A stretch of DNA of 64,000 bases from assembly GCA_001890965.1 (NCBI GenBank), contig MLAY01000008.1:552341-616340 (forward strand), read 5' to 3'. How positions within the stretch are numbered: the first letter of the stretch is position 1; every line of letters starts with the position of its first letter. The notes under the pieces were generated by a model. That model worked only from the letters and a program-made list of their open reading frames with translations, did not search any database and was not told where the DNA came from. The position numbers and the translations under genes are program-made. Below are positions 7,915 through 46,919 of this stretch, in pieces. The stretch is from a marine bacterium AO1-C. Its GTDB lineage: Bacteria > Bacteroidota > Bacteroidia > Cytophagales > Microscillaceae.

Positions 7915-8056
7915 GGTTTTGTATTTTGTCTGGTAGATAGTTCATAGCATCTATGATGTTGTCAAAAGTTTTCAGTTAATCACTAGATGTAATTCTCAAA
8001 AACCAATCACCTGATACTATAGATTATATATTGCTATGAACTATCGACTCATCACC

Positions 8057-15276: not shown

Positions 15277-15511
15277 GCTTTTGCTAATTTGGGTTACACC
15301 TGTTTTAATGGTTACATTGTTTGATCGTCCAATAGTTTATAATATATGGTAAAACTCTTGAACCTTATAGCCATTTAGCAATCGTTTTGGAGATCACTTA
15401 ATTCAGGTAATATGATTGATTTAAAGCGAATTATTGTTTTCTAATTATTCTTCAGAAAACGAAATAAATCTTAGTTGGTTTAATGATTCACCAACTACTA
15501 AAAGCGAAGCA

Positions 15512-16246: not shown

Positions 16247-16378
16247 GCAGCTCATCATATATTGTTCAATTGTTTTATTGCTGATTCCTTCAACCAAGCG
16301 CAGCACAGCGGGGTTTACCAAGTATTACAGACTTAGCGAAACAGTCTCAAAAAAACTCAACAATTTAATCACCTAACA

Positions 16379-20697: not shown

Positions 20698-20871
20698 TTA
20701 TGTGGTAGTTTAAGTTTAAAACACAACAATTACTATAAATATAGTCATATGACTATTAAACTAGTAATAAGTAGAAAAGTTTCATGTCCAATATACTTAT
20801 TAACAACACATAAATAAGTTTAACCACAGGTTATTTGGATGATTTAAAAGATGTATTTACTCAACAAAGCA

Positions 20872-22068
20872 TTACAATTTGGCCTCAATTTCTTCTAATT
20901 GTTTTTGAGCTTTTTGCACAAACGATTTTACTTCCTTTTTGGCCAGGGTTACTACTTCTTGAGCCACAGGATAAGCTTGTTTATAGCGTTTCATTTTTAG
21001 CAACAAGCCCACCTTTGCATTGAGATTATCTACATTACGCTTTAGCTTGATAGCTCGATTTATCCAATGTAGGGCACTGTTTAAATGTTCCAAATCAGTA
21101 TATTTATTAGTGTACATCCAAGCAGCATATAGTAGGGCTATTTCGTCGTTGGTATGATCTAAAAATTTACGGGCATATTTTAAGGATTTTTTTTCATCGG
21201 GCAGGTAATATAAATACTCCTTTCGAGCAATGGCTTCTTTTGCTTCTTCAGGAGGAAAAACCATTTTTACTTTCTTCCGGTAATCAATCAATGCTTGTTC
21301 TCTTTCTGAATGAGGCACATTCATCGCATCTTCGTTCAGTGATTTGATTAGGTATTGGCTAACAATCTTTTTACCCAAAACTTGAGCAAAACTAGCTCGG
21401 TTGTCAAGAATGTAGTTAAACTCCTTTGAAGTAGTTCTCTTCAAATAAGCTTCTATTATTTTCCAGTTTTCTGGTTTCGCCCAGTTTGCTTTTTCCTGTT
21501 GAGCCAAGTACGCACTCAATGGTTTATCGTAGGGTTCATTTGCCAGGCTCAATGCTTTGATATAACGCTTTAGAAAATCGTTTTCTCTAGCTCCGGCTTT
21601 ATATCGCCTTTGTTGAGCCATCAATTGGGTTTTGGGGTCTAGGGCCTGACGAGCTGCATCTATAATTTTAGCTGCTCCGCCAGAGCCTTTGACAATATGC
21701 ACCAGATTTCCCTGGGGGTCAAAATAAAGCAAGGTAGGATATGATGTCACTTGGTACTTTTTGGCAAACGCAACGCCTTCTCCTTTTTCCATATCCAATT
21801 CGTAACTCACCAAGTGTTGATTATAAACATCTCCTACCTCTTTCAAAGGAAAGACCTTCTTCCTCAGGTATTTGCAAGGGCCACACCAGGTAGTATAAGC
21901 ATCTACAAATATGAATTTATTCTCTTTTTTGGCTTTCGTCTGAATTTCGCTCCAGGTACCTTTTTCAAATTTGATCCCTTGTCCAAGTACTACACTACTC
22001 ACCCAGGCAATAAGAGTGACCACACATAAAATCGTTCTCATATAATTTAAAAGTTTGATTGGTTTCAC
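20872..22068 (-). CDS. Thioredoxin-family protein; paralog 2 of 4 (most divergent)
   Basis: AYTTWCGPCKYLRKK motif. The start may be the internal M at 22041. No terminator copy downstream, unlike the other three. Confidence 0.7.
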   Translation of the reverse strand: MKPIKLLNYMRTILCVVTLIAWVSSVVLGQGIKFEKGTWSEIQTKAKKENKFIFVDAYTTWCGPCKYLRKKVFPLKEVGDVYNQHLVSYELDMEKGEGVAFAKKYQVTSYPTLLYFDPQGNLVHIVKGSGGAAKIIDAARQALDPKTQLMAQQRRYKAGARENDFLKRYIKALSLANEPYDKPLSAYLAQQEKANWAKPENWKIIEAYLKRTTSKEFNYILDNRASFAQVLGKKIVSQYLIKSLNEDAMNVPHSEREQALIDYRKKVKMVFPPEEAKEAIARKEYLYYLPDEKKSLKYARKFLDHTNDEIALLYAAWMYTNKYTDLEHLNSALHWINRAIKLKRNVDNLNAKVGLLLKMKRYKQAYPVAQEVVTLAKKEVKSFVQKAQKQLEEIEAKL

Positions 22069-22121
22069 ATAAAATACGTATTGTATTGACTAGACGCGAC
22101 TTATTTGTGTAAAGCAAACCA

Positions 22122-22158
22122 TCAAAAAAAGCCTATTTCTCGTAAGAAACAGGCCCTT
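22122..22158 (-). terminator. Terminator hairpin copy (gcctatttc-tcgtaa-gaaacaggc) downstream of thioredoxin paralog 3
   Basis: Same hairpin-plus-A-run unit as at 19465-19500, with one mismatch in the stem. Confidence 0.5.
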
Positions 22159-22178
22159 AAATATTGGTTGATTAAGTA

Positions 22179-23366
22179 TTATAACTTCGCATTGATTTTC
22201 TTTAGCAAGGCCTGTGCTCCTCCTGGACTTCCCCCTATTTTTTTGGACAAAGCAATAGATTCTTCCGCTACTTTTTTGGCTTCCTGATAACGCTTCAATT
22301 TATATAATAAGCGCGCTTGGGTACTGGTATTATACCAAGTCTTTTTTAGCTTCACCGATTTTTCGGCCCACACCAATGCTTTTTCCAGTTTTTGAGGATC
22401 ATTCGTAATTAAACTATACCTGGCCGCCATACCGCCTAAATCCTGAGAACCATTGCAATAATTATCATAATACTTGCAGACATACCGAAAAGCTTTTTCT
22501 TTATCTTTGTCAAGATAAAAGAACCAAAAATCTGCTTTAGTCAAGAGCTTTTCAACGTCTCTCTTTTGAACAAATACTTTTCTCAATCTTCGCTTCAATG
22601 AATCTAATTGGGCCTCACTTTTATCTTTAGAAAACGCTACTTTTTTCATGTCCTCTTCTAACACCTTTTCGATATAATTTTTCACGTTCTCTTTTTTCTT
22701 AGCCACTTGCTCAAACTTTGCTTGGTTTTTTAAGACATATTCAAAAGCTACTGCTGAAGGTTTTTCCACATATTGACTTATAAATTCCCAACCTTTGGTG
22801 GTGGCCCATTTGTCTTTACCCAGTTGGTTCAAGTATAGTGTAACGGGTTCAGTAATATCCTCGAAGGCAGTTTTCAAAGTCTTGATGTATTTCTCCAGGA
22901 ACTCATTGCTTTTTTCTCCTTTCTCAAAACGGCGTTGTAAAGTAAAAACCTGAGTTTCAGGGTTCAAGGCGTCTGCAGTCAGTTTCAGTAATATGTCAGC
23001 TGGCGCAGCCCCTCCAATTTTATGAACTATTTGGCCTTGGGGGCTAAAATATAGCAAGGTAGGATATGCACTTATCTTGTATTTTTTAGCAAAAGCAGGC
23101 CCTTCTCCCTTTTCTGTATTCACCTTATAAGACACAAAATGCTTGTTGAAAAAATCGCCTACTTTTTTTTGAGGAAAGACTTTTTTGGATTGCCACTGAC
23201 AGGGGCCACACCAAACAGTGTAGGCATCTACAAAAATGTACTTGTTTTCAGCTTTGGCTTTGGCTTTTATTTCCGTCCAGGTGCCTTTTTCAAACTTAAT
23301 CCCTTGAGCAATCGTGGTATTGGCAAGCCAACCTATCAGTATTAATGTATAGAATGTAACTTTCAT
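22179..23366 (-). CDS. Thioredoxin-family protein; paralog 3 of 4
   Basis: AYTVWCGPCQWQSKK motif. Same architecture as the others. Confidence 0.75.
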   Translation of the reverse strand: MKVTFYTLILIGWLANTTIAQGIKFEKGTWTEIKAKAKAENKYIFVDAYTVWCGPCQWQSKKVFPQKKVGDFFNKHFVSYKVNTEKGEGPAFAKKYKISAYPTLLYFSPQGQIVHKIGGAAPADILLKLTADALNPETQVFTLQRRFEKGEKSNEFLEKYIKTLKTAFEDITEPVTLYLNQLGKDKWATTKGWEFISQYVEKPSAVAFEYVLKNQAKFEQVAKKKENVKNYIEKVLEEDMKKVAFSKDKSEAQLDSLKRRLRKVFVQKRDVEKLLTKADFWFFYLDKDKEKAFRYVCKYYDNYCNGSQDLGGMAARYSLITNDPQKLEKALVWAEKSVKLKKTWYNTSTQARLLYKLKRYQEAKKVAEESIALSKKIGGSPGGAQALLKKINAKL

Positions 23367-23440
23367 CTTTTGAACAATTTAATTGATAACAACCTACACA
23401 GTTCTATACTTGATGGCTTTAAAAAATGGAGCCGATTTAT

Positions 23441-23475
23441 AAAAAAAGCCTGTCTCTCGTAAGAAACAGGCTCTT
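23441..23475 (-). terminator. Terminator hairpin copy (gcctgtctctc-gtaa-gaaacaggc) downstream of thioredoxin paralog 4
   Basis: Hairpin 23448-23471 with an aaaaaaa run on the plus strand. Confidence 0.55.
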
Positions 23476-23495
23476 AAATCTTGATTGATTAAGTA

Positions 23496-24668
23496 TTATA
23501 ATTTCGCATTGATTTTTTCTAACAATGCTTTGGTTTCTTTGGCATTTTGCTTGGCTTCTTTGGCCAAAGCTATAGATTCTTCAGCAACCTTTTTGGCTTC
23601 TTTGTAACGCTTAAGCTTAAATAACAAGTGGGCTTGAGTATCGGTATTGAACGATTTTTTCATCAATTTTACTGATTGTTGTGCCCAGCCTAAAGCCTTT
23701 TCTAAACGCTCAGTATCATTGTACTTTTTGTAATAGCCCCACGCAATGCTGTTAAACTCATAGGCATTGTCACAGTACTTATCAAAGTACTTGCAGGCAT
23801 ATTGCATGGCTTTTTCTTTGTCTCCAGCATAAAACATATATTCGGCCTTGGCAATGTGCTTGTCGGCATCTTTCCCAAATACATCCTTTAATTTCTTTTT
23901 GAAAGTAGTCAGCTGTTTTTTGTCTTTGGAACGAGCTACTCCGCGCATATCCATCATCAACACACGAGTGATATACTTCTCTACTTTTTCTTTGCTTTCA
24001 GCTGCTTTTTCAAACTTAGCCTGGTTTTTCATTACATACTCAAAAGCCTCTGCAGAAGACTTACGTACATACTTGCTGATAAACTTCCAACCTTCGGCAG
24101 TAGCCCATTTGTCTTTGCCCAATTGCGCCAGATACATGTCAGCAGGCTTGCTGAAATCCTCATAGGCACCTTCTAAAGCAGCAATATATTTTTGCAGAAA
24201 CTCATTACTTTTTTCTCCTTTTTCAAAACGACGCTTCAAAGTAAATACCTGGGTCTCGGGGTTTAGCGCATTGGCTGCAGCTTTTAGTAGTACCTTAGCA
24301 GGGTAGGCACCTACGGTTTTATGCACCATTTCGCCTTGGGGGTTAAAATATACCAAAGTAGGATAAGCTCTTACTTTGTATTTTTTTGCAAAGTCAACTC
24401 CTTCTCCTTTTTCCATATCCATTTTAAAAGAGATATAGTTTTTATTGAAAAAGTCACCTACTTCTTTTTGAGGGAATACTTTTTTGGATTGCCACTTACA
24501 AGGGCCACACCAGGTAGTATAGGCATCTACAAAAATGTGCTTGTTTTCGGCTTTGGCTTTAGCCTTAATTTCAGACCAGGAGCCTTTCTGAAAGGCAATT
24601 CCTTGAGCACCTGCGGTAAAGGCGGCTAGTAGTAAAAAAGCAAAGAGGGGTAAAAATTTATGCTTCAT
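23496..24668 (-). CDS. Thioredoxin-family protein; paralog 4 of 4
   Basis: AYTTWCGPCKWQSKK motif. ATG at 24668 (MKHKFLPLFAFLLLAAF, a signal peptide) is preferred over the longer ORF start at 24731. Confidence 0.75.
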   Translation of the reverse strand: MKHKFLPLFAFLLLAAFTAGAQGIAFQKGSWSEIKAKAKAENKHIFVDAYTTWCGPCKWQSKKVFPQKEVGDFFNKNYISFKMDMEKGEGVDFAKKYKVRAYPTLVYFNPQGEMVHKTVGAYPAKVLLKAAANALNPETQVFTLKRRFEKGEKSNEFLQKYIAALEGAYEDFSKPADMYLAQLGKDKWATAEGWKFISKYVRKSSAEAFEYVMKNQAKFEKAAESKEKVEKYITRVLMMDMRGVARSKDKKQLTTFKKKLKDVFGKDADKHIAKAEYMFYAGDKEKAMQYACKYFDKYCDNAYEFNSIAWGYYKKYNDTERLEKALGWAQQSVKLMKKSFNTDTQAHLLFKLKRYKEAKKVAEESIALAKEAKQNAKETKALLEKINAKL

Positions 24669-24866
24669 TGTGTATTGTAGTTTAAGGGTGATTGATTTAT
24701 GTTGAGTTAAATTAATGATTTTTTGCCTCAATGATGTTCTTCCAGCCCAAATAGTTGCTTTCTTCGCAAGAAATTATGCTTTCTTTAGTATTTAGCCTGC
24801 TTTTTTTTCTTAACCTTTTACCTTTGCATCCGGTTATTTAAGCAATCAAAATAAGTATACTGGTTT

Positions 24867-27468: not shown

Positions 27469-27819
27469 TTAGGAAGGTAATGGATAAGTCAGTTTCTTGT
27501 CCATTACTTTTTGGAATATTACCTTTTCCACGGCTGCCCAATCTTCATAACCTAAAAACTGTACAATCTTTTCTTGATTGATCGTATTGAGTTTTCCCAA
27601 ACATTTGGTAGTGGCTTCACTATTAAACAATCGTTTGAGGGTAGAAATGCTTATGTCGGTCATAGAAGATAAATTCCTAAAATCCTTATAGGTACAATCT
27701 TCAGGCTTTTGGGGTATTCTTTTGCAATAGGTAAGACCGCTGGCAGGTCTTCCCAGCAGTTCATTAGCCCTTTCCAAGATCATTAGGGCAATTGTTTTTT
27801 TTAAAATTCGGGTTAGCAT
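27469..27819 (-). CDS. Small HTH-like protein; paralog A of a pair that brackets the lanthipeptide biosynthetic genes
   Basis: Shares with 33125..33442 the blocks MILE(R/T)A, DFR(N/Y)LS..T.ISI(S/T)TLKRLFN(S/C)EA and QKI..FLGY..W..VE.VI. The S..T..RL block resembles an HTH recognition helix. Confidence 0.5.
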   Translation of the reverse strand: MLTRILKKTIALMILERANELLGRPASGLTYCKRIPQKPEDCTYKDFRNLSSMTDISISTLKRLFNSEATTKCLGKLNTINQEKIVQFLGYEDWAAVEKVIFQKVMDKKLTYPLPS

Positions 27820-28096: not shown

Positions 28097-31000
28097 TTAA
28101 TCATTTTCAGCCATCACCTCTGGCTGATTCGTTTGTTTTTTCTTCGCTCTGGCAATAGTGGAACGATAATGCTGAAAAAGAAAGTCGTACAATACTACTT
28201 CGTGGATGCGTTGTTTAGAACGTAGTAATCGATTAACCATCATATGGATATAACTCGGCAACATGATATTTAGTTGACCTTGCGTTCCATTTGCCTCACA
28301 AATAGTGTGTATTTCTTGAATAATACCTTTCCAGGCTTGAGAACGTTGCTCAAAACAATCAAATGCGGCAGCCAGTGGGTGGGTATTATCGTATGAAGTC
28401 ACCATTATTTCTTGCACCTTAGTACGGGCTTCGCGATATTTTTGACTCAACTGTTTCTTGGCCGCTTTGTCGGTAAAGTTAAAATCTCGGGCAAAATTGT
28501 CTTTCATGTTTTCTATCAACTGCAAGCGCTGGTGCAAATCCAACCCAAAATCGGCCATCAATGCATCTGCACCTCTCAAAGCCAACAACCAACGAAATTC
28601 TTCTATTTCTTCGCCTTCGAATAAGCTTAAAATATTGGCTACTGCCTGACTATCATGGCAAAATAGTTTCTCTGAAAGCTCCATTGTGGCCGCTCCATAG
28701 CGTTCCACTTCGCGCACATAAGTATCGGTATGGAAGTTACTCACCAAACCAGTGCTCACGTAAGGTTCCAGGGCTTGATGCAGCAAGGCAATTACTTGGG
28801 CATAAAACAAGCCTTTACCCTTAAAACGCACTCTCAAATGGCTTTTTGGATCTATATAACGCAAGAAAAACCATTCTTCAATGATTTGTTCCGACAAAAG
28901 TTGATCGGCTACTGGTTTGATCACTTCGGTAATGATTTGATCAGCGATCTTAGCCCCACAATATATTTTTAGATAAAACCATTCTGACCCTAAAGCAAAT
29001 TCACGGGTAATTTGCTGGTCAGTAACCGTAAACAGGTTGGTATTAGTTGGCGACTGGACATCAGCCTGATTTGCATTGGTGGTATAATGAAAAGGCACCA
29101 CAATTTCATTGGTAAAGCTTCCTTCTGGGCCAGTGGCCAACAAGTTTTGTTCATGAAACAAAGATTCCTCTAAAACCGCCACATAAGAAGGTTTGTACAA
29201 GCTCAACAATATTTTGATGGGCCATAGCTGCGATAAATCCAATGGAAGTTTATTGTCTCCAAAAACAGCCGTTATATGTTGGGGTATTTGCAATCGGTCA
29301 CGCAGAGCCTGCATTTTTTCTACTTTGTGCGCATCGCTTGCATCTCTTACCTCCTTTAAATCTTCGGCTTTCACTTTCCATCGGGCCTTGCTCAAAATGG
29401 CTTTGCCCAAGGTTACTCTTGGCAACCAATCAGCATTTTCGAGATGCAGCCAACTCCAGGTTACACCATTGGCAAATTGGGTTTGCAAGTCACACAAGAA
29501 GTAGTATACTGGAACCGATTTCGTTTCATAATTATGAGCAGAACTTAAACGAGGGATTACTTCTTTGCCCAGTTTTTTAGAAAATAAAATCAAACGATCA
29601 TCGTGGATTTTCAGCCATAAATCAGCCAAAGCAATGGTATATGCTTCGTCTACTGCGGTAGTAGCCATTACTGGAATCTCATAATCGCGTAATACCGCTC
29701 GTTGCAATACATTGCCCAAACGAGCCATGGGCAAATGCACAATCTCTGCCAAAATTGCTTCAGGAAAGGCCGCTTGTTCTTTCTCAAAAGTATGTTTTAG
29801 CAAATCGGTGAGTTCTTCTCCTTCATAACAAAAACGCCCCAACATTTTACCTACTGATGCTCCGCCAGCTGAGGTAACCGCTACCTGAAACTTCCCCTGA
29901 TCTACCGCCTCGGGCGATGCAGCTAACACATTGCCTAAAAAGCTAAAAGTAGTTCCCAACTGAAGGTCTTCAGGGCGAGTAAATAGTTTTTCCAGTTCGT
30001 CTTTTGACAATTCTATATTGGCCTTGCCCTGGTGCAAAGCTTCATAATATTTTTCTTGTAAATAATGCGTCCAGGCACTCAGTTCTAAAGAAGCGTTAGA
30101 AGCTCGGCCATTTTTTGCCAATACCAAGTCATCTACCAAAGGAGTAAAGTCTGCTGAGTCTTGATGCTTAAGTGGATATCCCAGGCCAACTTCACTATCT
30201 AAGGCCTGTAGCAATGGTACGGCTTGTTGCTCATACTTTTGCCGAAAATCTACCTTAAAACTCTCTAAGTCTAGATTGGGAGCATTACCTTTGATCAAAA
30301 ATAGCCATTCTACTGCTTCAACTATTTCTTTGGCTACTTGTGGGTGCAAAGTATTTTGGATGGTAGCTTTTTGCATATCTACTTGAAACAGCTCTCCCGC
30401 CTTTATTTCTTGGCCTTTTGCATCCAATTGTTGCGCGAGTGCTTCGATTGCTTGCTGGATTTGGCGATAACGATCTACCTCTACTCCTAGCGGTTGGTGA
30501 TCAATCGCCTGCATTTGTTGAGCGATTTGCTCTAAAGCGTTTACCAATGTCCCCTGTGAAGGAATTGTTTGAAGAATTTCGATTAAACGCCCTAAAAACT
30601 CTTCTCCGGTAACCGTGGGTTCTAACTCACTTAACAATAACTGACTCTCAATGAGTGCCTCAATAAACTCACTGGCTTCTTCCAGGGTAGTTTCGTCGTC
30701 TACAAACAGGTTGGCCAAATCTATAATTTTGGCCCCTTGTTGGGCTTGCTGCAAGACTAACTCTATAAATTCTGAATTGTCTACATCTACCAAATGTAAA
30801 GTTCGTCCTTTTTCCTGCAAACGATATTCGAGGTAGCGTAAATAGTCTCCTACTTTATATAAGGTAGGATTGGGGTAAAATTTTAAATGAGGTTTGATTG
30901 CGGGCCTTTCGGCCAATTGAATTGCAAAATTGCCAAGAAACCCCATGTCGAGTCGGGTATGTCGTTGATTATGTTCGTTCTCGGCAAACTTTACCTGAGT

Positions 31001-31333
31001 TTGTTGCTCAAACTTACCTACCGATATTCCTGCCATCAACCCAAAAGGGGTAGGCCGAAACGACATACGATACAAGTACTTTAGAAATGATATTTTGAGC
31101 TTCTCTTCTTCTTTGGTGCTTTCTACGCCGTTTTTGAACCATTGCAGTAAAGCCTCTAGCAAACTAGGTGATGACAAATAAATTGCCTCTCGAATGATGG
31201 GGTTTTCTAATAGTTTTTCGATCGATATCGCTTCAACATCAGCAAAAGAATTAAAGGGTAAGAGTGGGGTTCTTAAAACGTAATAATCCAGTGGGCGAAT
31301 GTGGTATTTTTTAGGTTGGTTAGTTTGTTTCAT
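28097..31333 (-). CDS. Class I lanthipeptide dehydratase LanB (full-length, unsplit: glutamylation plus elimination domains)
   Basis: ~1080 aa. N-terminus (MKQTNQPKKYHIRPLDYYVLRTPLLPF) is the hallmark start of lantibiotic dehydratases. Its size is consistent with an N-terminal dehydratase domain plus a C-terminal SpaB_C-type elimination domain. It follows LanC after a 25-bp gap. Confidence 0.85.
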   Translation of the reverse strand: MKQTNQPKKYHIRPLDYYVLRTPLLPFNSFADVEAISIEKLLENPIIREAIYLSSPSLLEALLQWFKNGVESTKEEEKLKISFLKYLYRMSFRPTPFGLMAGISVGKFEQQTQVKFAENEHNQRHTRLDMGFLGNFAIQLAERPAIKPHLKFYPNPTLYKVGDYLRYLEYRLQEKGRTLHLVDVDNSEFIELVLQQAQQGAKIIDLANLFVDDETTLEEASEFIEALIESQLLLSELEPTVTGEEFLGRLIEILQTIPSQGTLVNALEQIAQQMQAIDHQPLGVEVDRYRQIQQAIEALAQQLDAKGQEIKAGELFQVDMQKATIQNTLHPQVAKEIVEAVEWLFLIKGNAPNLDLESFKVDFRQKYEQQAVPLLQALDSEVGLGYPLKHQDSADFTPLVDDLVLAKNGRASNASLELSAWTHYLQEKYYEALHQGKANIELSKDELEKLFTRPEDLQLGTTFSFLGNVLAASPEAVDQGKFQVAVTSAGGASVGKMLGRFCYEGEELTDLLKHTFEKEQAAFPEAILAEIVHLPMARLGNVLQRAVLRDYEIPVMATTAVDEAYTIALADLWLKIHDDRLILFSKKLGKEVIPRLSSAHNYETKSVPVYYFLCDLQTQFANGVTWSWLHLENADWLPRVTLGKAILSKARWKVKAEDLKEVRDASDAHKVEKMQALRDRLQIPQHITAVFGDNKLPLDLSQLWPIKILLSLYKPSYVAVLEESLFHEQNLLATGPEGSFTNEIVVPFHYTTNANQADVQSPTNTNLFTVTDQQITREFALGSEWFYLKIYCGAKIADQIITEVIKPVADQLLSEQIIEEWFFLRYIDPKSHLRVRFKGKGLFYAQVIALLHQALEPYVSTGLVSNFHTDTYVREVERYGAATMELSEKLFCHDSQAVANILSLFEGEEIEEFRWLLALRGADALMADFGLDLHQRLQLIENMKDNFARDFNFTDKAAKKQLSQKYREARTKVQEIMVTSYDNTHPLAAAFDCFEQRSQAWKGIIQEIHTICEANGTQGQLNIMLPSYIHMMVNRLLRSKQRIHEVVLYDFLFQHYRSTIARAKKKQTNQPEVMAEND

Positions 31334-31358
31334 TTGGTAAAGAATTAAGTCATCATTT

Positions 31359-32615
31359 CTAAGCAATATCAAGCAAAAAGGCTCGCTCCCAATCGGTATT
31401 ATTTTCGTTATCCAAGAAACCCAGCATTACCATTGCAATCCCGGCATAGCCTTCTAAGAAACTGTAATCTTCTACCCAGTAAGGCTCTTTGGTATCAGGA
31501 TTCACTTTCATTCGTTTGTAATGTTCTTGTGCTTCGTTTTCTTGGTATTGTGTTACCAATAGGTTTAGCCAATGATCAGCAGCTTGTTGAAAGGCTTCTT
31601 CTTGTGTTGCCTGGTACAACTTACGATACATGTGGGCTATGCCTCCACCGCCATGGCAAAAGCCTGCATCCATCAGATTATCTTGAGGACTAAGGTGTAC
31701 CCCCGCTTCCTGAGGAGTTGCTTTTTGGGTAGTTTGTAGCGCAATCGCAATGGCCTTTTGCTTCCATTGATCCTGATCTAGGGCTTTTGAGGCATGCATC
31801 AAGGCTACCACAATGCATAAATCTCCGTAACACCAAGCCAACCGACCTTGTCGCTCATTGGCGGCTCCTTCTATAATCGTCAGCGGAAAGCACTCTGGTT
31901 GGTCTTCAAGCTCTTGCTGCACTAGCCAGGTCACGCTTTGCTCCAGCAATGTTTTACTTACTTCGGGTAAAATTTCGTTTTGAAAAGCCTTAGCCAAAAA
32001 GCTAATAATTCCAGGAATGCCATGGGCTAGCCCCAGATTGTAGCGAACATGGTGTTGGTATTCTTCATCTATGGTAAAATGGTCTTGCCAATAAGTAAAT
32101 CCATTTTCTTTGATGGCAGTTTGGTCTAAAGAAGTAACAATTTGTTCTAGTTGTGTCCTTGCTGAATCTGCGTGAGGTAAACGCTCGAGGTAATAAATAC
32201 CTTTGCTCACTAAACCATACAGCGTATCATAATTTTTATGTTGGCTATTTTGTACCAACGATGCCTCTATCATATCATCTAAATCGCTCAACATTTCGGC
32301 ATCTTCAGGATCAAGAATTTCTATGTTTACCAAATGTTGTAGCAACCAGGCTGCCCCCAGGTATTTGCCTGCCATAGCTACCTCGGCATGGGCTATCTCG
32401 CTATTTACTTGCATAAACTCCTCCAACGCCTCCACAGCTCCCTGGGCAAACTTATCGGCTTGCGATGCATCAAATAAGCTTGCATAGGCATACAGTAATG
32501 ATTGGGCCGCGTGATAATTGCTAAACAGGTAAGGAGTAGTAGGCAATGGATGCTTCTCGAACTTATTGAGTAGTTTTTGGACGATGTTTTTTTGAAGCTC
32601 AGGGGAAGACCACAT
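31359..32615 (-). CDS. Lanthionine synthetase C-like cyclase LanC
   Basis: Zinc-ligand and catalytic motifs GLAHGIPGI, LAWCYGDLCI and GFCHGGGGIAHMY (GxAHG / WCxG / CHG). Confidence 0.85.
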   Translation of the reverse strand: MWSSPELQKNIVQKLLNKFEKHPLPTTPYLFSNYHAAQSLLYAYASLFDASQADKFAQGAVEALEEFMQVNSEIAHAEVAMAGKYLGAAWLLQHLVNIEILDPEDAEMLSDLDDMIEASLVQNSQHKNYDTLYGLVSKGIYYLERLPHADSARTQLEQIVTSLDQTAIKENGFTYWQDHFTIDEEYQHHVRYNLGLAHGIPGIISFLAKAFQNEILPEVSKTLLEQSVTWLVQQELEDQPECFPLTIIEGAANERQGRLAWCYGDLCIVVALMHASKALDQDQWKQKAIAIALQTTQKATPQEAGVHLSPQDNLMDAGFCHGGGGIAHMYRKLYQATQEEAFQQAADHWLNLLVTQYQENEAQEHYKRMKVNPDTKEPYWVEDYSFLEGYAGIAMVMLGFLDNENNTDWERAFLLDIA

Positions 32616-32699
32616 ATTTCAGAGAATGAATTGGCAATGAATAAAAAATGATCACCCCCTTTGATAGCAAAGGAGGTGATTGAAAGCAACGCTTAATGT

Positions 32700-32924
32700 T
32701 TATACTGGGTAGTTAGATGGAGTTCTGCATTGTCTAGAGTCGTTGCAGGTAAACTGAGAAGCAGCACAAGGACCACCCATGCTACGGTCACAAGTCATGT
32801 CTTCTACACGAGTAAGATACTGACAAGCTTCTCCACCTTGAATAGTTTTCAGGTTCAAATCGTTTTGACCTTTGGTAAAATTCTTTAATGTACGTTTGTT
32901 TACTTTGAATTTGTTTTTGCTCAT
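32700..32924 (-). CDS. Lanthipeptide precursor peptide LanA (double-glycine leader, Cys/Ser/Thr-rich core)
   Basis: 74 aa. Leader MSKNKFKVNKRTLKNFTKGQNDLNLKTIQGG with an NDLNL (FNLD-like) box and a GG site. Predicted core EACQYLTRVEDMTCDRSMGGPCAASQFTCNDSRQCRTPSNYPV has 5 Cys and 8 Ser/Thr. Immediately upstream of LanC and LanB on the same strand. Confidence 0.7.
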   Translation of the reverse strand: MSKNKFKVNKRTLKNFTKGQNDLNLKTIQGGEACQYLTRVEDMTCDRSMGGPCAASQFTCNDSRQCRTPSNYPV

Positions 32925-33124
32925 GATTAAAATTAGATTTAGTTAACATACCTACTCTGTTTCCGATTTTCGGCGTACTCGGTCTTAGAAACTGTGTAGA
33001 CTTTAATGAAAAATGGCTTATAACATTTCTTGTCACTAAAACCACACAATTTCACAATCCAAAGATCAAAAAGAAAATAAATATATTTCCCTCACAAAAT
33101 GACCAAATAAAATTTGGATAAAGA

Positions 33125-33442
33125 TCAATCTTTCTTATCAATTAGATTATCAAGAATGACCCCTTCGACCTCGTCCCAGGTGGCATATCCTAAAAAATGA
33201 GCAATTTTTTGTTGGTTTTTGGCATTACAAAATCTTACTCCTTGAGCCTCACAGTTGAAGAGACGTTTGAGCGTAGTAATGCTAATCCCTGTAAGGTAAG
33301 ACAGGTATCGAAAATCGGCGTGTCGGCAAGTCTGCGTGTCGGTAGCTAATTTGGTTTGCTGTTCACAGAATGCTTGATTTTTTGCGGTAGCAGTTTCCAA
33401 AATCATTTGAGCCACTTGCTGTTTAAGGAGATGGTATAGCAT
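33125..33442 (-). CDS. Small HTH-like protein; paralog B, immediately upstream of the precursor gene
   Basis: See 27469..27819. 105 aa. Confidence 0.5.
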   Translation of the reverse strand: MLYHLLKQQVAQMILETATAKNQAFCEQQTKLATDTQTCRHADFRYLSYLTGISITTLKRLFNCEAQGVRFCNAKNQQKIAHFLGYATWDEVEGVILDNLIDKKD

Positions 33443-33730: not shown

Positions 33731-35041
33731 CTACTTCACCAAAACCCTTTTTTCCATCAACAATCGTTTCTCTACATCCCATACTTTCACCTGATAAGAG
33801 CCTTTAGGTAGCACCAAATAAGAAGGCTTATCTAGTTGCTTGAGGTGGATTTGGTCTATGGGCACTGCATTTTCAGCATCACTTGGTTTAAAAGCTTGCA
33901 CCAAACACTCTTGCTTGATATTCCACTTTTTAGGATCAACCTTGTAGTACTTTTTGGCGGTCCCCCAACTGAGCCAGGTTGGGCGTCCGTTTTTGAGTTG
34001 GGTACGGGGCAAAAAGACTTGCACATCTACGTAGTTTACAAACAAATTGCCCGTATCGGCTACCCAAGGTTTGCTTTGATACTCAAGCACAATGGGGCTA
34101 TTTTTTAACCAACCTTGTTTGATCACCTGACGATAATACACATGTTCATATTTTTTATGAAAACGCTCGGTCATCTCAGTTTGATCTATAGTAAAAGGGT
34201 TGATTCCGGTCAATTTGATGAACTCCTCGCCCATTTTTACCCAACTTTTCTTCTGGTGGTTTTCTTCTATATTCTGGATACCTCCATATACCAGCATCTT
34301 GGCTTCAGGATTTTTCTTAAGCACCTCCTGTAAGTGCATCGCTTGCTGTTTAGATCTTGAGGTACCTCGTTTGTTGGCCTCGTAAGGCAATACTTTAAAG
34401 CCTAGCTTGATGGCTTGGCGAATCAAGTTACTCATCATAGGTTCTAAAGTAAAATACCCCGAATTGGCCAATGGATAACCTCGTTGGTTCAGCAAAGTAT
34501 CTTTATGGCTCAATGTCTCGACCATCAAGAAACGAAAGCCTTGTTGGTATAAACCAGCTAATAGTGTCGCAGCAAAGGCTCGGTGCTGGCCCACATGGTG
34601 CGCTTCATTGATCATTATTACTTGCTCACGCTTGGCTCTTTGGAGAATGTAGTTTTTAGCATCAGGCACCTTTACTTGCTTACTATCCAGCGATTTGACT
34701 ACTATTTTCTTTCTACCCTCAATCATCAAGGCTTTGTCAAAATAGTAAAGTGCGCTATCATAATTCGTCACAAACGAATTGTAAAACCCTTGGTATTGGG
34801 CATAAAAACTCTTGGTATCAGGATCGGCATTGGCCACAAGGCTTTCGTTGGCTTTGAGCGCAACTACTGGCTTGAGATAATTAGGGTTAGAGCGATCTTG
34901 TATAGCCTCTCTCACTATACTATCTATTTTGCTCATGAGTTCGAACTGAGCAAATGCTTGTGTTTGAAAAAATAGTATTCCACAAAGGATACTACCTATC
35001 ACAAAAGCTTTTCCGGCGGATAATTTCGCAAATTTGATCAT
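33731..35041 (-). CDS. Secreted protein of uncertain function encoded inside the lanthipeptide operon (possible Tiki/TraB/erythromycin-esterase-like hydrolase)
   Basis: Signal peptide (GILFFQTQAFAQ). INEAHHVGQHR and VYGG segments weakly resemble the paired GxxH motifs of the Tiki/TraB/PrgY/ChaN superfamily. Assignment is tentative. Confidence 0.4.
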   Translation of the reverse strand: MIKFAKLSAGKAFVIGSILCGILFFQTQAFAQFELMSKIDSIVREAIQDRSNPNYLKPVVALKANESLVANADPDTKSFYAQYQGFYNSFVTNYDSALYYFDKALMIEGRKKIVVKSLDSKQVKVPDAKNYILQRAKREQVIMINEAHHVGQHRAFAATLLAGLYQQGFRFLMVETLSHKDTLLNQRGYPLANSGYFTLEPMMSNLIRQAIKLGFKVLPYEANKRGTSRSKQQAMHLQEVLKKNPEAKMLVYGGIQNIEENHQKKSWVKMGEEFIKLTGINPFTIDQTEMTERFHKKYEHVYYRQVIKQGWLKNSPIVLEYQSKPWVADTGNLFVNYVDVQVFLPRTQLKNGRPTWLSWGTAKKYYKVDPKKWNIKQECLVQAFKPSDAENAVPIDQIHLKQLDKPSYLVLPKGSYQVKVWDVEKRLLMEKRVLVK

Positions 35042-35343
35042 TACTTTAAAACAGTTTAAAATTTTAATGTTTTATCACTAATGGGGCTACCTCTTAGAAG
35101 AATGACTTTAATAGATAAGTATAAATTAGGAGAGACTTGTTAATTATGATTTATTGGGTGTACCTAAGAGATTAGTCTCCAGGTAACCTTACTTGAGAGA
35201 TAAAAAAAGTGGAGAGATTTTATGATTTGATTCGGGTAATAGGCTGGCTTTTAAGAAAATGTGCTGATAATAAAGCAAAAAAAATTGTAGGCAATTCACA
35301 TCATTGCCTACAACCTTTTATATCGTTACGAAAGCGAAAGGGC

Positions 35344-37539
35344 TTACCCTCCTAATTCTAACTGGTTTTTCACCAAGTCGTAGTACATACCTTTTTGGGC
35401 AGTAAGTTCTGCGTGAGTTCCTTGCTCTACCAGTTTTCCTTTCTCGAGTACAATGATTTGGTCAGCATTTTTTACCGTACTCAATCGGTGGGCAATCACT
35501 ACTGCGGTACGTCCCTTGAAGAACTCATTTAAGTTCTCCATAATGATCTTCTCATTGTTGGCATCCAGAGCCGAAGTAGCCTCATCAAAAAACAAAAATT
35601 CAGGGTTTTTATACACTGCCCGAGCAATCAAAATCCGTTGTTTTTGTCCACCACTTACCCCAATTCCATCCTGGCCAATTTTGGTGTTATAGCCCAAAGG
35701 CAAACCTTCAATAAACTCTTGAATGTTGGCCACTTGTACTGCCTGACGCAAACGCGCCTGATCTATGATTTCGTCACTTACTGCAATATTACGAGCAATG
35801 GTATCAGAGAAAATAAATCCATCTTGCATGACAGTACCACAACGCTCTCGCCACATACGACCATTGAGGTTATTCAACTGAATACCTTCAAGTTTAATAA
35901 CACCTTCTACCGTATCATAAAACTTAAGCAAGAGTTTCAGAAGCGTAGTTTTTCCACTACCACTGGTACCTACCACTGCGGTAATTTTCCCTTCAGGGAT
36001 GGTAAAAGAAACATCTTCTAAAACCTTAGGAGAATGAGGTCCTTCGTATTGAAAGGTAACATCTTCGAGGTGAATATTTTTACCTTCAGGCAAAATCGTA
36101 ATCTGAGGGGTTCCATCTTCTTCCTCGTTGTCTTTGTCATGAATTTCACCCAATCGCTCCAGACTTATCTTGGCATCCTGCATTTCATATACAAAGTTGA
36201 TCATTTGGCTAATAGGGCCATCCAACTGCCCAATAATAGACTGTACTGCCAACATCATACCCAGCGTCATAGAACCATTCACTACTGCGTAGGCTGCCGA
36301 AAACGTGATCAGAATGTTTTTACTTTGGTTGATAAATAAGCTTCCTGCCTGCTGTATTTGCTCCAAGGTTACACTCTTTACATTGATCTTAAACATTTTG
36401 GCCTGAATACGCTCCCATTCCCACCGCTTTTGTTTTTCACAGTTGTTTAGCTTAATCTCTTGCATACCATTAATCAAGTGAATCAAGCTACTTTGGTTAC
36501 GTGACATTTCCTGAAAACGCTTGTAATCCAGTTTTTTACGCCAGTTTAAGAATGCCAATACCCAGGCAATGTACAAGATACTTCCTACTAAAAATATCAA
36601 AAAGATATAGATATTGTAAAAGGCCAGAATGACCCCAAATACTATAAAGTTGAAGAAGGAGAATAGGATAGAAAGCGTGGAAGTACTCAGAAACTGCTCA
36701 ATGCGGTGGTGGTCGTTGATTCGTTGCAATAAATCTCCGATCATTTTGGTGTCGAAAAAGCCAATGGGGAGTTTCATCAACTTGATCAAGAAATCGGAAA
36801 TCAGTGAGATATTGATCCGGGTACTGAGATGTAGCAGTATCCACCGCCTTATAAAGTCCACTGCTGTTTGGCTAAAAAAGAGTACAAATTGGCCAATTAG
36901 CACAATGTAAATAAAATCCAGATTGCGGGTATTAATCCCGATATCTACTACCGATTGGGTAAGAAATGGGAAAATCATACTGAGCAAACTGCCCAACAAT
37001 AATCCCAAAAACAATTGGAATAAAAACTTACGATAACGCACCAAATACCCCAACAAAAAGCGCCAACTAGCCTTATTAATCTTTTCGTCAGTTTCTTTTT
37101 GATAAAACTCTGGGGTGGGTTCCATCAACATGGCTACCCCTTTGTCTTCGCCTCCTTCCCGAGTACTTGCCCAGTGTTTTAGAAATTGCTCTCGCTCATA
37201 TGTTACTAATCCTACTGCTGGGTCAGATACAAATACTTTCTTTTTTGTGACTTTATATACCACTACAAAGTGCTGTTGATTCCAGTGGGCAATAAAAGGC
37301 ACTGGAGCTTCATCGGCTAGTTGCTGGAAGGTAGTTTTTACACCAATAGTACGAAAACCAACTGCTTCGGCAGCATCGCTAATACCCAATAAAGAAACGC
37401 CTTCACGGGTAATATAGCTTTGCTCACGCAGGTATTGTAATGAATATTTTTTACCGTAATGTTCTGAAATAATTTTGACACATGAGGGGCCGCAGTCCAT
37501 CATGTCTAATTGTATATAGGAGGGAAATTTCTTCGCCAT
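35344..37539 (-). CDS. Peptidase C39 domain-containing ABC transporter (LanT/bacteriocin-processing exporter)
   Basis: N-terminal C39 motif MDCGPSC plus downstream His/Asp. Six-TM core. Walker A GTSGSGKTT, ABC signature LSGGQKQRILIARAV, Walker B LFFDEATSALD. Confidence 0.85.
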   Translation of the reverse strand: MAKKFPSYIQLDMMDCGPSCVKIISEHYGKKYSLQYLREQSYITREGVSLLGISDAAEAVGFRTIGVKTTFQQLADEAPVPFIAHWNQQHFVVVYKVTKKKVFVSDPAVGLVTYEREQFLKHWASTREGGEDKGVAMLMEPTPEFYQKETDEKINKASWRFLLGYLVRYRKFLFQLFLGLLLGSLLSMIFPFLTQSVVDIGINTRNLDFIYIVLIGQFVLFFSQTAVDFIRRWILLHLSTRINISLISDFLIKLMKLPIGFFDTKMIGDLLQRINDHHRIEQFLSTSTLSILFSFFNFIVFGVILAFYNIYIFLIFLVGSILYIAWVLAFLNWRKKLDYKRFQEMSRNQSSLIHLINGMQEIKLNNCEKQKRWEWERIQAKMFKINVKSVTLEQIQQAGSLFINQSKNILITFSAAYAVVNGSMTLGMMLAVQSIIGQLDGPISQMINFVYEMQDAKISLERLGEIHDKDNEEEDGTPQITILPEGKNIHLEDVTFQYEGPHSPKVLEDVSFTIPEGKITAVVGTSGSGKTTLLKLLLKFYDTVEGVIKLEGIQLNNLNGRMWRERCGTVMQDGFIFSDTIARNIAVSDEIIDQARLRQAVQVANIQEFIEGLPLGYNTKIGQDGIGVSGGQKQRILIARAVYKNPEFLFFDEATSALDANNEKIIMENLNEFFKGRTAVVIAHRLSTVKNADQIIVLEKGKLVEQGTHAELTAQKGMYYDLVKNQLELGG

Positions 37540-46802: not shown

Positions 46803-46919
46803 GGGTTATATGGTTTTTTAGTAGATAGTTGATAGTATCAAGTCAATGGTTCATAGTCTGCAATACTAGCTAGACTAAATTTTGATACTGTGGTCTGTTG
46901 GCCGTTAACCGTAGACTCT

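What the first reader, a model, noticed from the sequence alone, without database searches (positions are those of the whole stretch)
32700..32924. Precursor peptide with an unusually polar, charged core and two candidate double-glycine cleavage sites
The leader MSKNKFKVNKRTLKNFTKGQNDLNLKTIQGG has the hydrophobic -4/-7 spacing (I, L) expected for C39 processing, plus an NDLNL box resembling the FNLD box that LanB recognises. The predicted core EACQYLTRVEDMTCDRSMGGPCAASQFTCNDSRQCRTPSNYPV has 5 Cys and 8 Ser/Thr, enough for five (methyl)lanthionine rings plus extra dehydro residues. It is rich in Asp, Glu and Arg, which is atypical for membrane-targeting lantibiotics. A second internal GG (SMGG|PC) could instead yield a 23-aa, 3-Cys product. 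The sequence alone leaves it open which GG is used.
Basis: partly seen in the sequence, partly recalled or inferred. Interest (0 to 1): 0.65.

Follow-up and report, generated by a model that had tools for sequence, protein, structure and literature searches.

The report
Bacteroidota class I lanthipeptide precursor gene
This small gene encodes the precursor of a ring-containing (lanthionine) peptide made by neighbouring enzymes in a marine Cytophagales bacterium. It is an ordinary new member of a known group, and comparison with relatives shows the leader is almost certainly cut at the first Gly-Gly.

Summary
The 74-aa ORF at 32700..32924 (- strand) is exactly as described. It is a real gene: synonymous sites against five homologues are saturated (pS 0.5-0.9) while pN is 0.08-0.12 among close homologues. 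It lies directly upstream of a LanC cyclase with intact zinc ligands and a full-length LanB dehydratase. A C39-ABC exporter with an intact Gln/Cys/His/Asp active site lies 2.4 kb upstream. This is therefore a class I lanthipeptide precursor of the Gly-Gly-leader type already known from Bacteroidota and marine Gram-negatives. The host is marine bacterium AO1-C, where the gene is annotated only as a hypothetical protein.

The first GG is invariant in all eight family sequences. The internal GG becomes GA in one sequence and is lost in another, and it lacks hydrophobic -4/-7 residues, so cleavage after G31 giving a 43-aa core is favoured. The proposed "NDLNL = FNLD box" is not supported. The leader instead carries the Bacteroidota LxLxKx5L motif, here FKVNKRTLKNF. 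The polar, slightly anionic core is confirmed and holds across the family, as do five Cys and five Ser/Thr.

Unexpected extras:
- An Rfam DUF805b RNA motif in the lanA 5' UTR in all six loci.
- A highly conserved upstream region.
- A covarying hairpin between lanA and lanC.
- Two paralogous small proteins flanking the operon.

The parts
32700..32924 (-). lanA: 74-aa class I lanthipeptide precursor (OJJ18871.1). Leader is residues 1-31 (nt 32832..32924), core is residues 32-74 (nt 32703..32831), stop is 32700..32702.
   Evidence: sequence; homologues; purifying selection; database identity.
32832..32837 (-). Codons for G30-G31, the predicted C39 cleavage site (cut after G31). Invariant in all 8 family sequences.
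32772..32777 (-). Codons for the internal G50-G51. Not conserved (GA in P0002, absent in L012), with Ser at -4 and Cys at -7. Judged not to be a processing site.
32877..32909 (-). Codons for F6..F16 (FKVNKRTLKNF). This is the Bacteroidota class I leader motif LxLxKx5L in the form PhixPhixKx5Phi, and the presumed LanB recognition element.
   Evidence: literature; regex in window and in 7 related leaders.
32949..32983 (-). Match to Rfam DUF805b RNA (RF02914, cis-regulatory, function unknown) in the lanA 5' UTR, ending 24 nt before the ATG.
   Evidence: 41.4 bits against a gathering score of 35.6. It is the only hit in the 64 kb. The same motif sits at the same place in L002, L005, L008, L012 and L015.
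33060..33117 (-). Highly conserved upstream block: palindrome CCAAAT-N3-ATTTGG (33103..33117) followed by a T-rich promoter-like stretch ending in GATCTTTG. Candidate operator plus promoter.
   Evidence: Intergenic identity is 71-95%, while synonymous sites of lanA are saturated.
32985..33049 (-). Insertion of about 65 nt, private to this genome, between the conserved promoter block and the DUF805b motif.
   Evidence: alignment gap in all five other loci.
32651..32680 (-). 13-bp hairpin followed by a T-run between lanA and lanC. Terminator/attenuator-like, conserved with compensatory changes.
   Evidence: scan; 13 pairs, 4 with changes on both sides.
31359..32615 (-). lanC: lanthionine cyclase, 418 aa, with GLAHG, WCYG and CHG motifs (catalytic His and Zn ligands).
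28097..31372 (-). lanB: full-length dehydratase with glutamylation and elimination domains. The listed TTG start overlaps lanC; the true start may be slightly downstream.
35344..37539 (-). lanT: C39 peptidase-ABC exporter (AMS/PCAT type), 731 aa, with Q10, C16, H90 and D106. It has its own terminator-like hairpin at 35279..35319.
   Evidence: It is 93% identical to the LanT that lies directly beside the cluster in L012.
33125..33442 (-). orf105 (BKI52_25210): small all-helical protein, possibly an XRE-like HTH. It is conserved immediately upstream of lanA in every locus.
27469..27819 (-). Paralogue of orf105 (BKI52_25190 region), conserved immediately downstream of lanB in every locus.
   Evidence: (hhalign 99.5%, 43% identity).
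33731..35041 (-). orf436: predicted secreted protein of unknown family, inserted between lanT and orf105 in this genome only. Membership of the system is uncertain.

Best explanation
The ORF is lanA, the precursor of a class I lanthipeptide of the Gly-Gly-leader type found in Bacteroidota. The proposed pathway is below; every step is inferred from homology and conservation, and none is shown experimentally.
1. lanA is transcribed from a strongly conserved promoter/operator region, with a DUF805b-type element in its 5' UTR.
2. A hairpin after lanA lets only part of the transcription continue into lanC-lanB.
3. LanB binds the N-terminal leader motif FKVNKRTLKNF. It then dehydrates Ser/Thr of the core through glutamyl-tRNA-dependent glutamylation and elimination.
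4. The zinc enzyme LanC adds the Cys thiols to the dehydro residues, giving up to five (methyl)lanthionine rings. The likely partners are the five invariant Cys (core positions 3, 14, 22, 29, 35) and the five invariant Ser/Thr (7, 13, 25, 28, 32).
5. The C39 domain of the neighbouring ABC exporter LanT cuts after G30-G31 and exports a 43-residue, polar, slightly anionic peptide.

The internal GG is a structural Gly pair inside the core, not a second processing site. The peptide carries no lipid II-binding motif. Like other Gram-negative class I lanthipeptides, it probably does not act as a nisin-like membrane or lipid II antibiotic.
For: - Gene order lanT ... orf105-lanA-lanC-lanB-paralogue, all on the - strand. 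Pfam scores: Lant_dehydr_N 534 bits, Lant_dehydr_C 240 bits, LANC_like 131 bits, Peptidase_C39 123 bits.
- LanC keeps GLAHG, WCYG and CHG.
- The LanT C39 domain aligns to ComA/PCAT1/LahT with Gln, Cys, His and Asp in place.
- The same core cluster surrounds every homologous precursor.
- Strong purifying selection acts on leader and core.
- The first GG is invariant in 8/8 sequences; the internal GG is not.
- Before the first GG, -4 is Ile and -7 is Leu. Before the internal GG they are Ser and Cys. C39 domains seat -4, -7 and -12 in a hydrophobic groove, and charged substitutions at -4/-7 abolish cleavage (PMC6363468).
- The LxLxKx5L leader motif is present in the window and in 7 related Bacteroidota leaders.
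- It is the only GG-leader ORF of this type in the 64 kb that has homologues or sits beside lan genes.
- The hairpin between lanA and lanC has 4 compensatory pairs.
- There are no lipid II motifs.
Against: - No experimental data exist: no mass, no transcript, no cleavage assay.
- Position -12 before the first GG is polar (Gln; Asp in L012). This departs from the canonical Leu-12 of C39 substrates.
- lanT is clustered only in the window and L012. Loci L002-L008 have no catalytic C39 gene nearby, so processing by this transporter is not a conserved feature of the cluster.
- No membrane-fusion or outer-membrane partner for export across the Gram-negative envelope lies in the 64 kb.
- Core Cys3 has no conserved Ser/Thr N-terminal to it. 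Five canonical N-to-C rings are therefore impossible: at least one ring must run in the reverse direction, or one Cys stays free.
- No NCBIfam or Pfam precursor model matches the peptide.
Confidence: 0.8

Rival explanations
1. The leader is removed at the internal GG (after G51). This would release a 23-residue, 3-Cys product (PCAASQFTCNDSRQCRTPSNYPV) and discard EACQ...SMGG as an extended leader or second fragment.
For: A GG dipeptide is present there in 6 of 8 family sequences. GA, as in P0002, is also an accepted C39 site in general. Spirosoma precursors from a related LanC clade also carry an internal GG shortly after the leader GG.
Against: The site is lost in the L012 homologue (NVTPG-C). 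Position -4 is Ser/Asn/Thr and -7 is an invariant Cys expected to sit in a ring, whereas C39 recognition needs hydrophobic -4/-7 in a helix. The 20 residues that would be discarded contain two invariant Cys and two invariant Thr, and are under the same purifying selection as the rest of the core.
Confidence: 0.04
2. The peptide is a genuine LanBC substrate, but the neighbouring LanT is not its dedicated processing exporter. On this view the leader is removed by an unlinked protease or transporter, possibly with further N-terminal trimming, and lanT is only a conserved neighbour.
For: lanT is absent from the cluster in L002-L008. It has its own terminator and is separated from the operon by an unrelated 436-aa gene in the window. 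LanT is 93% identical between the window and L012 while LanB/LanC are 54-55% identical, so they do not evolve as one unit. The stretch between GG and the first Cys varies in length (EA versus GGGHTDN), which is compatible with trimming. Unclustered lanthipeptide proteases are well documented (PMC8960859, listed).
Against: The GG and the -4/-7 pattern are invariant even in genomes without a clustered lanT, which argues for a C39-type enzyme somewhere. In L012, lanT lies directly beside orf105-lanA. No other GG-leader substrate for LanT exists in the 64 kb. The catalytic residues are intact.
Confidence: 0.12
3. The ORF is a conserved small protein unrelated to lanthionine chemistry, for example a disulfide-bonded secreted peptide that merely sits next to lanBC.
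For: No precursor-family HMM matches it. Thiol-disulfide oxidoreductase genes are abundant nearby: four thioredoxin-like paralogues, AhpC-NHL, and a C39-like-VKOR-Trx in L002.
Against: It co-occurs with lanC-lanB in every locus where flanks are available, including one in a different genomic context without the thioredoxin genes (L005). It has an odd number of Cys. Five Ser/Thr are co-conserved with five Cys. Its leader carries the Bacteroidota class I motif. The VKOR fusion in L002 has its own 4-Cys GG peptide.
Confidence: 0.03

Closest known systems
Class I lanthipeptides of Gram-negative bacteria with double-glycine leaders: pinensins (Chitinophaga pinensis), PedA15.1/15.2 (Pedobacter lusitanus), RuiA (Runella limosa), ChmA, thalassomonasins, viridisins, pseudorosins
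   Same: Separate LanB and LanC enzymes. The leader ends in GG, and Bacteroidota members carry LxLxKx5L. A C39 protease/transporter is often in the cluster. Cores lack lipid II motifs, and most show no antibacterial activity (PMC7268733; PMC9680876; PMC11270710). The nearest LanC relatives outside the family are Bacteroidota LanCs at 31-39% identity (Spirosoma, Chitinophaga, Elizabethkingia).
   Different: The core has no detectable similarity to anything outside a family of about 8 sequences among 1.84 billion representatives. There is a single precursor gene rather than several. LanB is full-length, whereas pinensin's is split. The leader has 13 residues between the motif and GG, against 4-11 in the others examined. 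Only this family has the DUF805b motif and the two flanking paralogous small proteins.
Nisin/subtilin/epidermin-type class I lantibiotics of Firmicutes
   Same: LanB plus LanC chemistry. The Cys count is similar (5) and the Ser/Thr count is similar (8). An inverted repeat lies between lanA and the biosynthetic genes.
   Different: There is no FNLD/FxLD box. The leader ends in GG for a C39 transporter, not in a LanP subtilisin site, and there is no LanP. There is no lipid II motif. The core has net charge -1 and GRAVY -0.71, against +2/+3 and positive GRAVY for the reference cores, which I quoted from memory. No LanFEG or LanI immunity genes lie in the 64 kb.
Double-glycine leader peptides processed by AMS/PCAT transporters (ComA, PCAT1, LahT)
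   Same: GG at -2/-1 and hydrophobic residues at -4 and -7. The transporter carries an N-terminal C39 domain with Gln/Cys/His/Asp.
   Different: Position -12 is polar in this family and a conserved Leu sits at -9 instead. No accessory (HlyD-like) or outer-membrane component is encoded nearby.
DUF805b RNA motif (Rfam RF02914)
   Same: The 35-nt element upstream of lanA scores above Rfam's gathering threshold in six independent loci. The stem is kept by base changes on both sides relative to the family consensus.
   Different: It precedes a lanthipeptide precursor gene, not a DUF805 gene. The association of the family with DUF805 genes is from its name and my memory of Weinberg 2017; the supplementary text was not available. 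Thermodynamic folding of the UTR is not better than shuffles.

Membership tests
Class I lanthipeptide system (LanA/LanB/LanC) | Full-length LanB dehydratase with glutamylation (Lant_dehydr_N) and elimination (Lant_dehydr_C) domains encoded with the precursor | tested here: met
   PF04738 534 bits (profile 2-649/649) and PF14028 240 bits (1-255/255). TIGR03891.
Class I lanthipeptide system (LanA/LanB/LanC) | Stand-alone LanC cyclase with catalytic His and Zn ligands (Cys, Cys-His) | tested here: met
   PF05147 131 bits. GLAHG, WCYG and FCHG align to NisC and 8BYK.
Class I lanthipeptide system (LanA/LanB/LanC) | Adjacent small ORF with a leader and a Cys- plus Ser/Thr-rich core, conserved with the enzymes | tested here: met
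Class I lanthipeptide system (LanA/LanB/LanC) | Dehydroamino acids and (methyl)lanthionine thioethers in the product | not testable with these tools
   Needs MS or NMR of the modified peptide.
Bacteroidota GG-leader class I LanA (Walker et al. 2020) | LxLxKx5L motif in the leader | tested here: met
   FKVNKRTLKNF (Phi-x-Phi-x-K-x5-Phi). LSLKKRTLQNF in L012, LTLNKNTVSNL in P0007, and the same pattern in L016 and L017 leaders.
Bacteroidota GG-leader class I LanA (Walker et al. 2020) | Leader ends in Gly-Gly and a C39 protease is encoded in the cluster | tested here: met
   GG is invariant. C39-ABC is present in the window and L012. It is not clustered in L002-L008.
AMS/PCAT double-glycine substrate | Hydrophobic residues at -4, -7 and -12 before GG | tested here: inconclusive
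   -4 Ile and -7 Leu are met; -12 Gln is not met (Asp in L012).
AMS/PCAT double-glycine substrate | Transporter C39 domain with oxyanion Gln and the catalytic Cys/His/Asp | tested here: met
   Q10, C16, H90 and D106 align with ComA, PCAT1 and LahT.
AMS/PCAT double-glycine substrate | Demonstrated cleavage after GG coupled to export | not testable with these tools
   Needs an in vitro protease assay or genetics.
Nisin-type leader (FNLD box) | F-N/D-L-D (FxLD) box about -18 to -15 in the leader | tested here: not met
   no F.LD in the leader. DLNL lies at -10..-7 and is not conserved in L012 or L011.
Lipid II-binding lantibiotics | SxxxCTP(G/S)C (nisin/gallidermin) or TxTxEC (mersacidin) motif in the core | tested here: not met
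   (regex).
DUF805b RNA (RF02914) | Covariance-model score at or above Rfam's gathering score | tested here: met
   35.8-41.4 bits against 35.6, in 6/6 loci.
DUF805b RNA (RF02914) | Location upstream of a DUF805-domain gene | tested here: not met
   The downstream gene is lanA. No Pfam family was found for it.
XRE/Cro-type HTH regulators (for orf105 and its paralogue) | Significant sequence or structural match to an HTH domain | tested here: inconclusive
   Pfam HTH_26 E=0.12. The AF2 model has pLDDT 84.7 and five helices. The best Foldseek PDB hit has E=0.68, but most weak hits are XRE-type HTH proteins.

The most novel reading that the evidence does not exclude
This small Cytophagales-specific family would not be an antibiotic. 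It would be a vertically inherited lanthipeptide with a conserved physiological role, such as signalling, metal binding or surface/morphogenetic function. Its core is frozen by purifying selection. Its synthesis would be controlled by a dedicated circuit made of two paralogous XRE-like proteins, a palindromic operator and the orphan DUF805b RNA element. That would give the first functional context for DUF805b outside DUF805 genes.
Probability: 0.2. Interest if true: 0.6.

Novelty: new member of a known kind. Interest (0 to 1): 0.38.

Why it matters
Class I lanthipeptides from Gram-negative bacteria are numerous in genomes but almost uncharacterised. Most show no antibacterial activity, and their cleavage sites and roles are described as enigmatic (PMC11270710). 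This locus adds a compact, single-precursor example in which comparative data already fix the probable cleavage site and the ten residues likely to form rings. It also has an unusually clear regulatory anatomy: a conserved operator/promoter, a DUF805b element and an attenuator hairpin. That makes it a convenient system for heterologous reconstitution and for asking what DUF805b does. As a discovery it is incremental, because the enzyme chemistry, the leader type and the processing logic are all known.

Tried and rejected
- Pfam and NCBIfam scans of the precursor and two homologues, up to E=10, matched no precursor family.
- The profile search of 1.84 billion representatives gave only two true distant relatives. 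The fourth hit, P0008, is a repetitive 437-aa protein matched over 30 residues and was rejected as spurious.
- The metagenome scan added only one more close homologue. The genome scan gave one, Microscillaceae UBA11690.
- A search of the RODEO supplement of Walker 2020 for this peptide, its motifs or the strain found nothing. No paper mentions Microscillaceae lanthipeptides, and none links strain AO1-C to this locus.
- The sigma-70 promoter scan was uninformative, which is expected for Bacteroidota.
- I looked by eye for the Bacteroidetes -7 TAnnTTTG element. Only a 7/8 match (GATCTTTG) is present, and the spacing to an upstream TTTG is non-canonical, so the promoter assignment stays tentative.
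- RNA folding of the 5' UTR was no better than shuffles.
- DUF805b was sought upstream of lanA in more distant clusters (L011, L016, L017) and is absent there.
- The supplement of the DUF805b discovery paper is not held, and Bothwell 2021 on PedA15 ring patterns is not held.
- orf436 has no Pfam, NCBIfam or PDB relatives, and its single-sequence AlphaFold model is unusable at pLDDT 34.
- I considered the C39-VKOR-thioredoxin fusion in L002-L004 as an alternative leader protease. I rejected this because its C39-like domain lacks the catalytic Cys region and it has its own 4-Cys GG peptide next to it.
- MAFFT did not put the leader motifs of distant clusters in register, so a regex was used instead.
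Full report
**Observation.** The counts are correct. The 43-residue stretch after G30-G31 has 5 Cys, 8 Ser/Thr, 5 acidic and 4 basic residues, net charge -1 and GRAVY -0.71. The exact protein exists in NCBI as OJJ18871.1, 'hypothetical protein BKI52_25205' of marine bacterium AO1-C, an unclassified member of Cytophagales. The gene has therefore been called but never interpreted.

**Neighbourhood.** All relevant genes are on the minus strand. In transcription order they are:
- a C39-peptidase/ABC exporter (35344..37539);
- a 436-aa predicted secreted protein without any family (33731..35041);
- a 105-aa protein (33125..33442);
- the precursor;
- LanC (31359..32615; PF05147, 131 bits);
- a full-length LanB (28097..31372; PF04738 534 bits and PF14028 240 bits);
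- a small protein of about 116 aa (27469..27819).

LanC retains the GLAHG, WCYG and CHG motifs that hold the catalytic His and zinc ligands of NisC. The exporter's N-terminal domain aligns with the solved C39 domains of ComA, PCAT1 and LahT, with Gln10, Cys16, His90 and Asp106 in place. Nothing else in the 64 kb resembles LanP, LanFEG/LanI, HlyD or TolC. A regex scan found no other credible GG-leader ORF.

**Relatives and selection.** A word-indexed search found five precursors at 78-86% identity. A profile search of 1.84 billion representative proteins added only two genuine distant members, P0006 and P0007. A metagenome scan added one more close copy. One relative comes from a Microscillaceae MAG, and several come from coral and marine metagenomes.

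Wherever flanks are available, the same core unit recurs: orf105 - lanA - lanC - lanB - small paralogue. This includes one locus (L005) in a completely different genomic context. Codon-level comparison shows synonymous differences of 0.52-0.86, which is essentially saturated. Non-synonymous differences are only 0.08-0.12 among the close homologues, and this holds in the leader and in the core separately. The frame is therefore translated and under strong purifying selection. The conservation of the core is notable, since RiPP cores are often variable.

**Which Gly-Gly.** In the eight-sequence alignment the first GG is invariant, and it is expanded to GGGGG in L012. The internal GG is GA in P0002 and is lost altogether in L012 (DNVTPG-C). 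Residues before the first GG are Ile(-4) and Leu(-7). Before the internal GG they are Ser(-4) and Cys(-7).

The crystal structure and mutagenesis of LahT150 show three things (PMC6363468):
- The last 13 or so leader residues carry the recognition.
- Positions -4, -7 and -12 sit in a hydrophobic groove.
- Charged replacements at -4/-7 abolish cleavage.

The 20 residues between the two GGs also contain two invariant Cys and two invariant Thr. They are as constrained as the rest of the core, which would make no sense for a discarded spacer. I therefore assign cleavage after G31 (confidence about 0.8-0.85). One caveat is that -12 is polar in this family (Gln; Asp in L012), with a conserved Leu at -9 instead.

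**Leader recognition by LanB.** No F.LD exists in the leader. The DLNL stretch lies at -10..-7, inside the C39 recognition helix, and changes to KPLNM or EILLT in distant members. Walker et al. (PMC7268733) reported that Bacteroidetes class I LanAs carry LxLxKx5L instead of FxLD, and usually end in GG with a C39 protease nearby. The window's leader has this motif as F6-K-V8-N-K10-RTLKN-F16. L012 has LSLKKRTLQNF and P0007 has LTLNKNTVSNL. Precursors next to the nearest outside LanCs (an unnamed metagenome contig, L016, and Spirosoma montaniterrae, L017) have it too. That LanB binds this motif is an inference by analogy; I found no experiment on it.

**The core.** Across all eight sequences, five Cys (core 3, 14, 22, 29, 35) and five Ser/Thr (7, 13, 25, 28, 32) are invariant or conservatively kept. 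S17, T37 and S39 are not. Five thioether rings are thus plausible, but the topology cannot be read from sequence. T13-C14 and T28-C29 are adjacent, and Cys3 has no conserved Ser/Thr on its N-terminal side. So at least one ring would have to run in the reverse direction, or one thiol stays free.

The polar, neutral-to-anionic character holds for the whole family: net -3 to 0, GRAVY -0.33 to -0.90. Reference nisin-type cores, which I quoted from memory, are cationic with positive GRAVY. Neither lipid II motif is present. This fits what is reported for other Gram-negative class I lanthipeptides, most of which lack antibacterial activity (PMC11270710). Pinensins are antifungal and bind zinc (PMC13532221).

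**Regulatory anatomy (found in passing).**
- *Conserved upstream region.* The roughly 127 alignable bases between orf105 and lanA are 71-95% identical between loci, even though synonymous sites in lanA are saturated.
  - The region starts with a palindrome, CCAAAT-N3-ATTTGG. It is unique in the window (33103..33117) and present once at the same place in ten related loci.
  - A T-rich promoter-like block follows.
- *DUF805b motif.* Further downstream, at 32983..32949 and 24 nt before the ATG, lies a 35-nt match to Rfam DUF805b (RF02914, 'Cis-reg').
  - It scores 41.4 bits against a gathering score of 35.6 and is the only hit in the window even at E<=5.
  - The same motif is found once, at the same position, in L002, L005, L008, L012 and L015.
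  - It is absent upstream of lanA in the more distant clusters L011, L016 and L017.
  - Its 4-bp stem differs from the family consensus on both strands of each pair.
  - The UTR as a whole does not fold better than shuffled sequence, so the evidence is the covariance score plus positional conservation, not thermodynamics.
- *Private insertion.* The window alone has an insertion of about 65 nt (32985..33049) between the promoter block and DUF805b.
- *Hairpin after lanA.* A 13-bp hairpin with a T-run (32680..32651) lies after lanA. It is conserved in all six loci, with four pairs changed on both sides. Such inverted repeats between lanA and the modification genes are classical in lantibiotic operons (my knowledge). 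They are thought to give excess precursor mRNA with partial read-through.

**Accessory genes.** orf105 and the small gene after lanB are paralogues (hhalign probability 99.5%, 43% identity). Their family numbers only 16 clusters in 5.8 billion proteins, and those whose surroundings I fetched all lie beside this lan cluster. An AlphaFold model built from a 15-sequence alignment (pLDDT 84.7) is a five-helix bundle. Foldseek finds nothing significant (best E 0.68), although most of the weak hits are XRE/Cro-type HTH proteins, and Pfam gives HTH_26 at E=0.12. 'Regulators' is therefore a reasonable but unproven label.

lanT is directly adjacent to orf105 in L012. It is 93% identical there, although LanB/LanC are only 54-55% identical and the flanking housekeeping genes 66-85%. 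It is missing from the cluster in L002-L008. In L002-L004 its place is taken by an unrelated module: a 67-aa GG-leader peptide with four Cys, plus a C39-like-VKOR-thioredoxin fusion whose C39-like domain lacks the catalytic Cys region. orf436 is present only in the window and remains uncharacterised.

**Mechanism, and what is shown versus inferred.**
- *Shown by computation:* the ORF is real and constrained. It is embedded in a complete LanB/LanC/LanT set with intact catalytic residues. The first GG and the leader motif are conserved. The regulatory elements are conserved.
- *Inferred from established knowledge of class I lanthipeptide biosynthesis:* LanB carries out glutamyl-tRNA-dependent dehydration. 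LanC carries out zinc-dependent Michael additions. Proteolysis is coupled to export by an AMS/PCAT transporter. The hairpin acts as an attenuator.
- *Unknown:* ring topology, the number of dehydrations, whether the peptide crosses the outer membrane (no MFP or OMF is nearby), the function of DUF805b and of the two paralogues, and the biological activity.

**Comparison and novelty.** The system works like, and passes the testable membership criteria of, the Bacteroidota GG-leader class I lanthipeptides. It fails those of nisin-type leaders and of lipid II binders. It is a new member of a known kind. The core sequence family is new and rare, but the chemistry and logic are not. The most interesting by-products are the DUF805b association and the dedicated pair of flanking paralogues.

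Noticed in passing
window 32949..32983 (-); also L002 9939..9973, L005 9939..9973, L008 8681..8715, L012 10023..10058, L015 628..662: The Rfam DUF805b RNA motif (an orphan cis-regulatory family) sits in the 5' UTR of lanA in all six loci, above the gathering score. It is the only such hit in 146 kb and is absent from more distant lan clusters. An association of this motif with a RiPP precursor gene was unexpected.
   Followed up: partly
window 33060..33117 (-): The non-coding block upstream of lanA is far more conserved (71-95% identity) than the synonymous sites of lanA. It includes a unique palindrome, CCAAAT-N3-ATTTGG, 8 nt after the orf105 stop. This may be an operator, or alternatively a small orf105 terminator hairpin.
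   Followed up: partly
window 32985..33049 (-): An insertion of about 65 nt, private to this genome, separates the conserved promoter-like block from the DUF805b motif. The other five loci lack it.
   Followed up: no
window 33125..33442 (-) and 27469..27819 (-): Two paralogous small proteins (43% identical) bracket lanA-lanC-lanB in every locus. The family has only 16 clusters in 5.8 billion proteins. The AF2 model is a confident five-helix bundle with only weak XRE-HTH resemblance.
   Followed up: partly
window 33731..35041 (-): A 436-aa gene with a signal peptide, with no Pfam, NCBIfam or PDB relative, lies between lanT and orf105 in this genome only. L012 has lanT directly next to orf105. 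Single-sequence structure prediction failed (pLDDT 34).
   Followed up: partly
window 35344..37539 (-) versus L012 7295..9490: LanT is 93% identical between two genomes whose LanB/LanC are 54-55% identical and whose flanking housekeeping genes are 66-85% identical. The transporter and the modification enzymes do not share one evolutionary rate or history.
   Followed up: no
L002 6058..9112 (also L003, L004): Next to the lan cluster in the Microscillaceae UBA11690 lineage lies a separate module. It has a 67-aa GG-leader peptide with four Cys, a 340-aa secreted protein, and a 554-aa fusion of a C39-like domain (no catalytic Cys region), VKOR and thioredoxin. It looks like a disulfide-peptide maturation/export system.
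   Followed up: partly
window 19522..24731 (-): There are four tandem paralogous thioredoxin-like proteins of about 390-410 aa. They are syntenic downstream of the lan cluster in several related genomes but absent from L005, so they are probably unrelated to the lanthipeptide.
   Followed up: no
window 5173..8806 (-) and 44025..47801 (-): There are two paralogous gene pairs. Each has a CarboxypepD_reg plus OMP_b-brl_3 outer-membrane protein followed by a Porph_ging/PNGase_F-II_N protein.
   Followed up: no
L017 10936..11886 (Spirosoma montaniterrae CP014263): Four tandem class I precursors with LxLxKx5M...GG leaders all carry a second GG (SGMGGY/SGPGGY) 8-9 residues into the core. The locus has two LanC genes. 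Internal GG pairs may therefore be common in this enzyme clade.
   Followed up: no
window 11792..13504 (+), 15434..18142 (+): The window also holds an eCIS-core-domain protein and, separately, a PP2C phosphatase next to a weakly matching protein-kinase-domain protein. These are unrelated to the finding.
   Followed up: no
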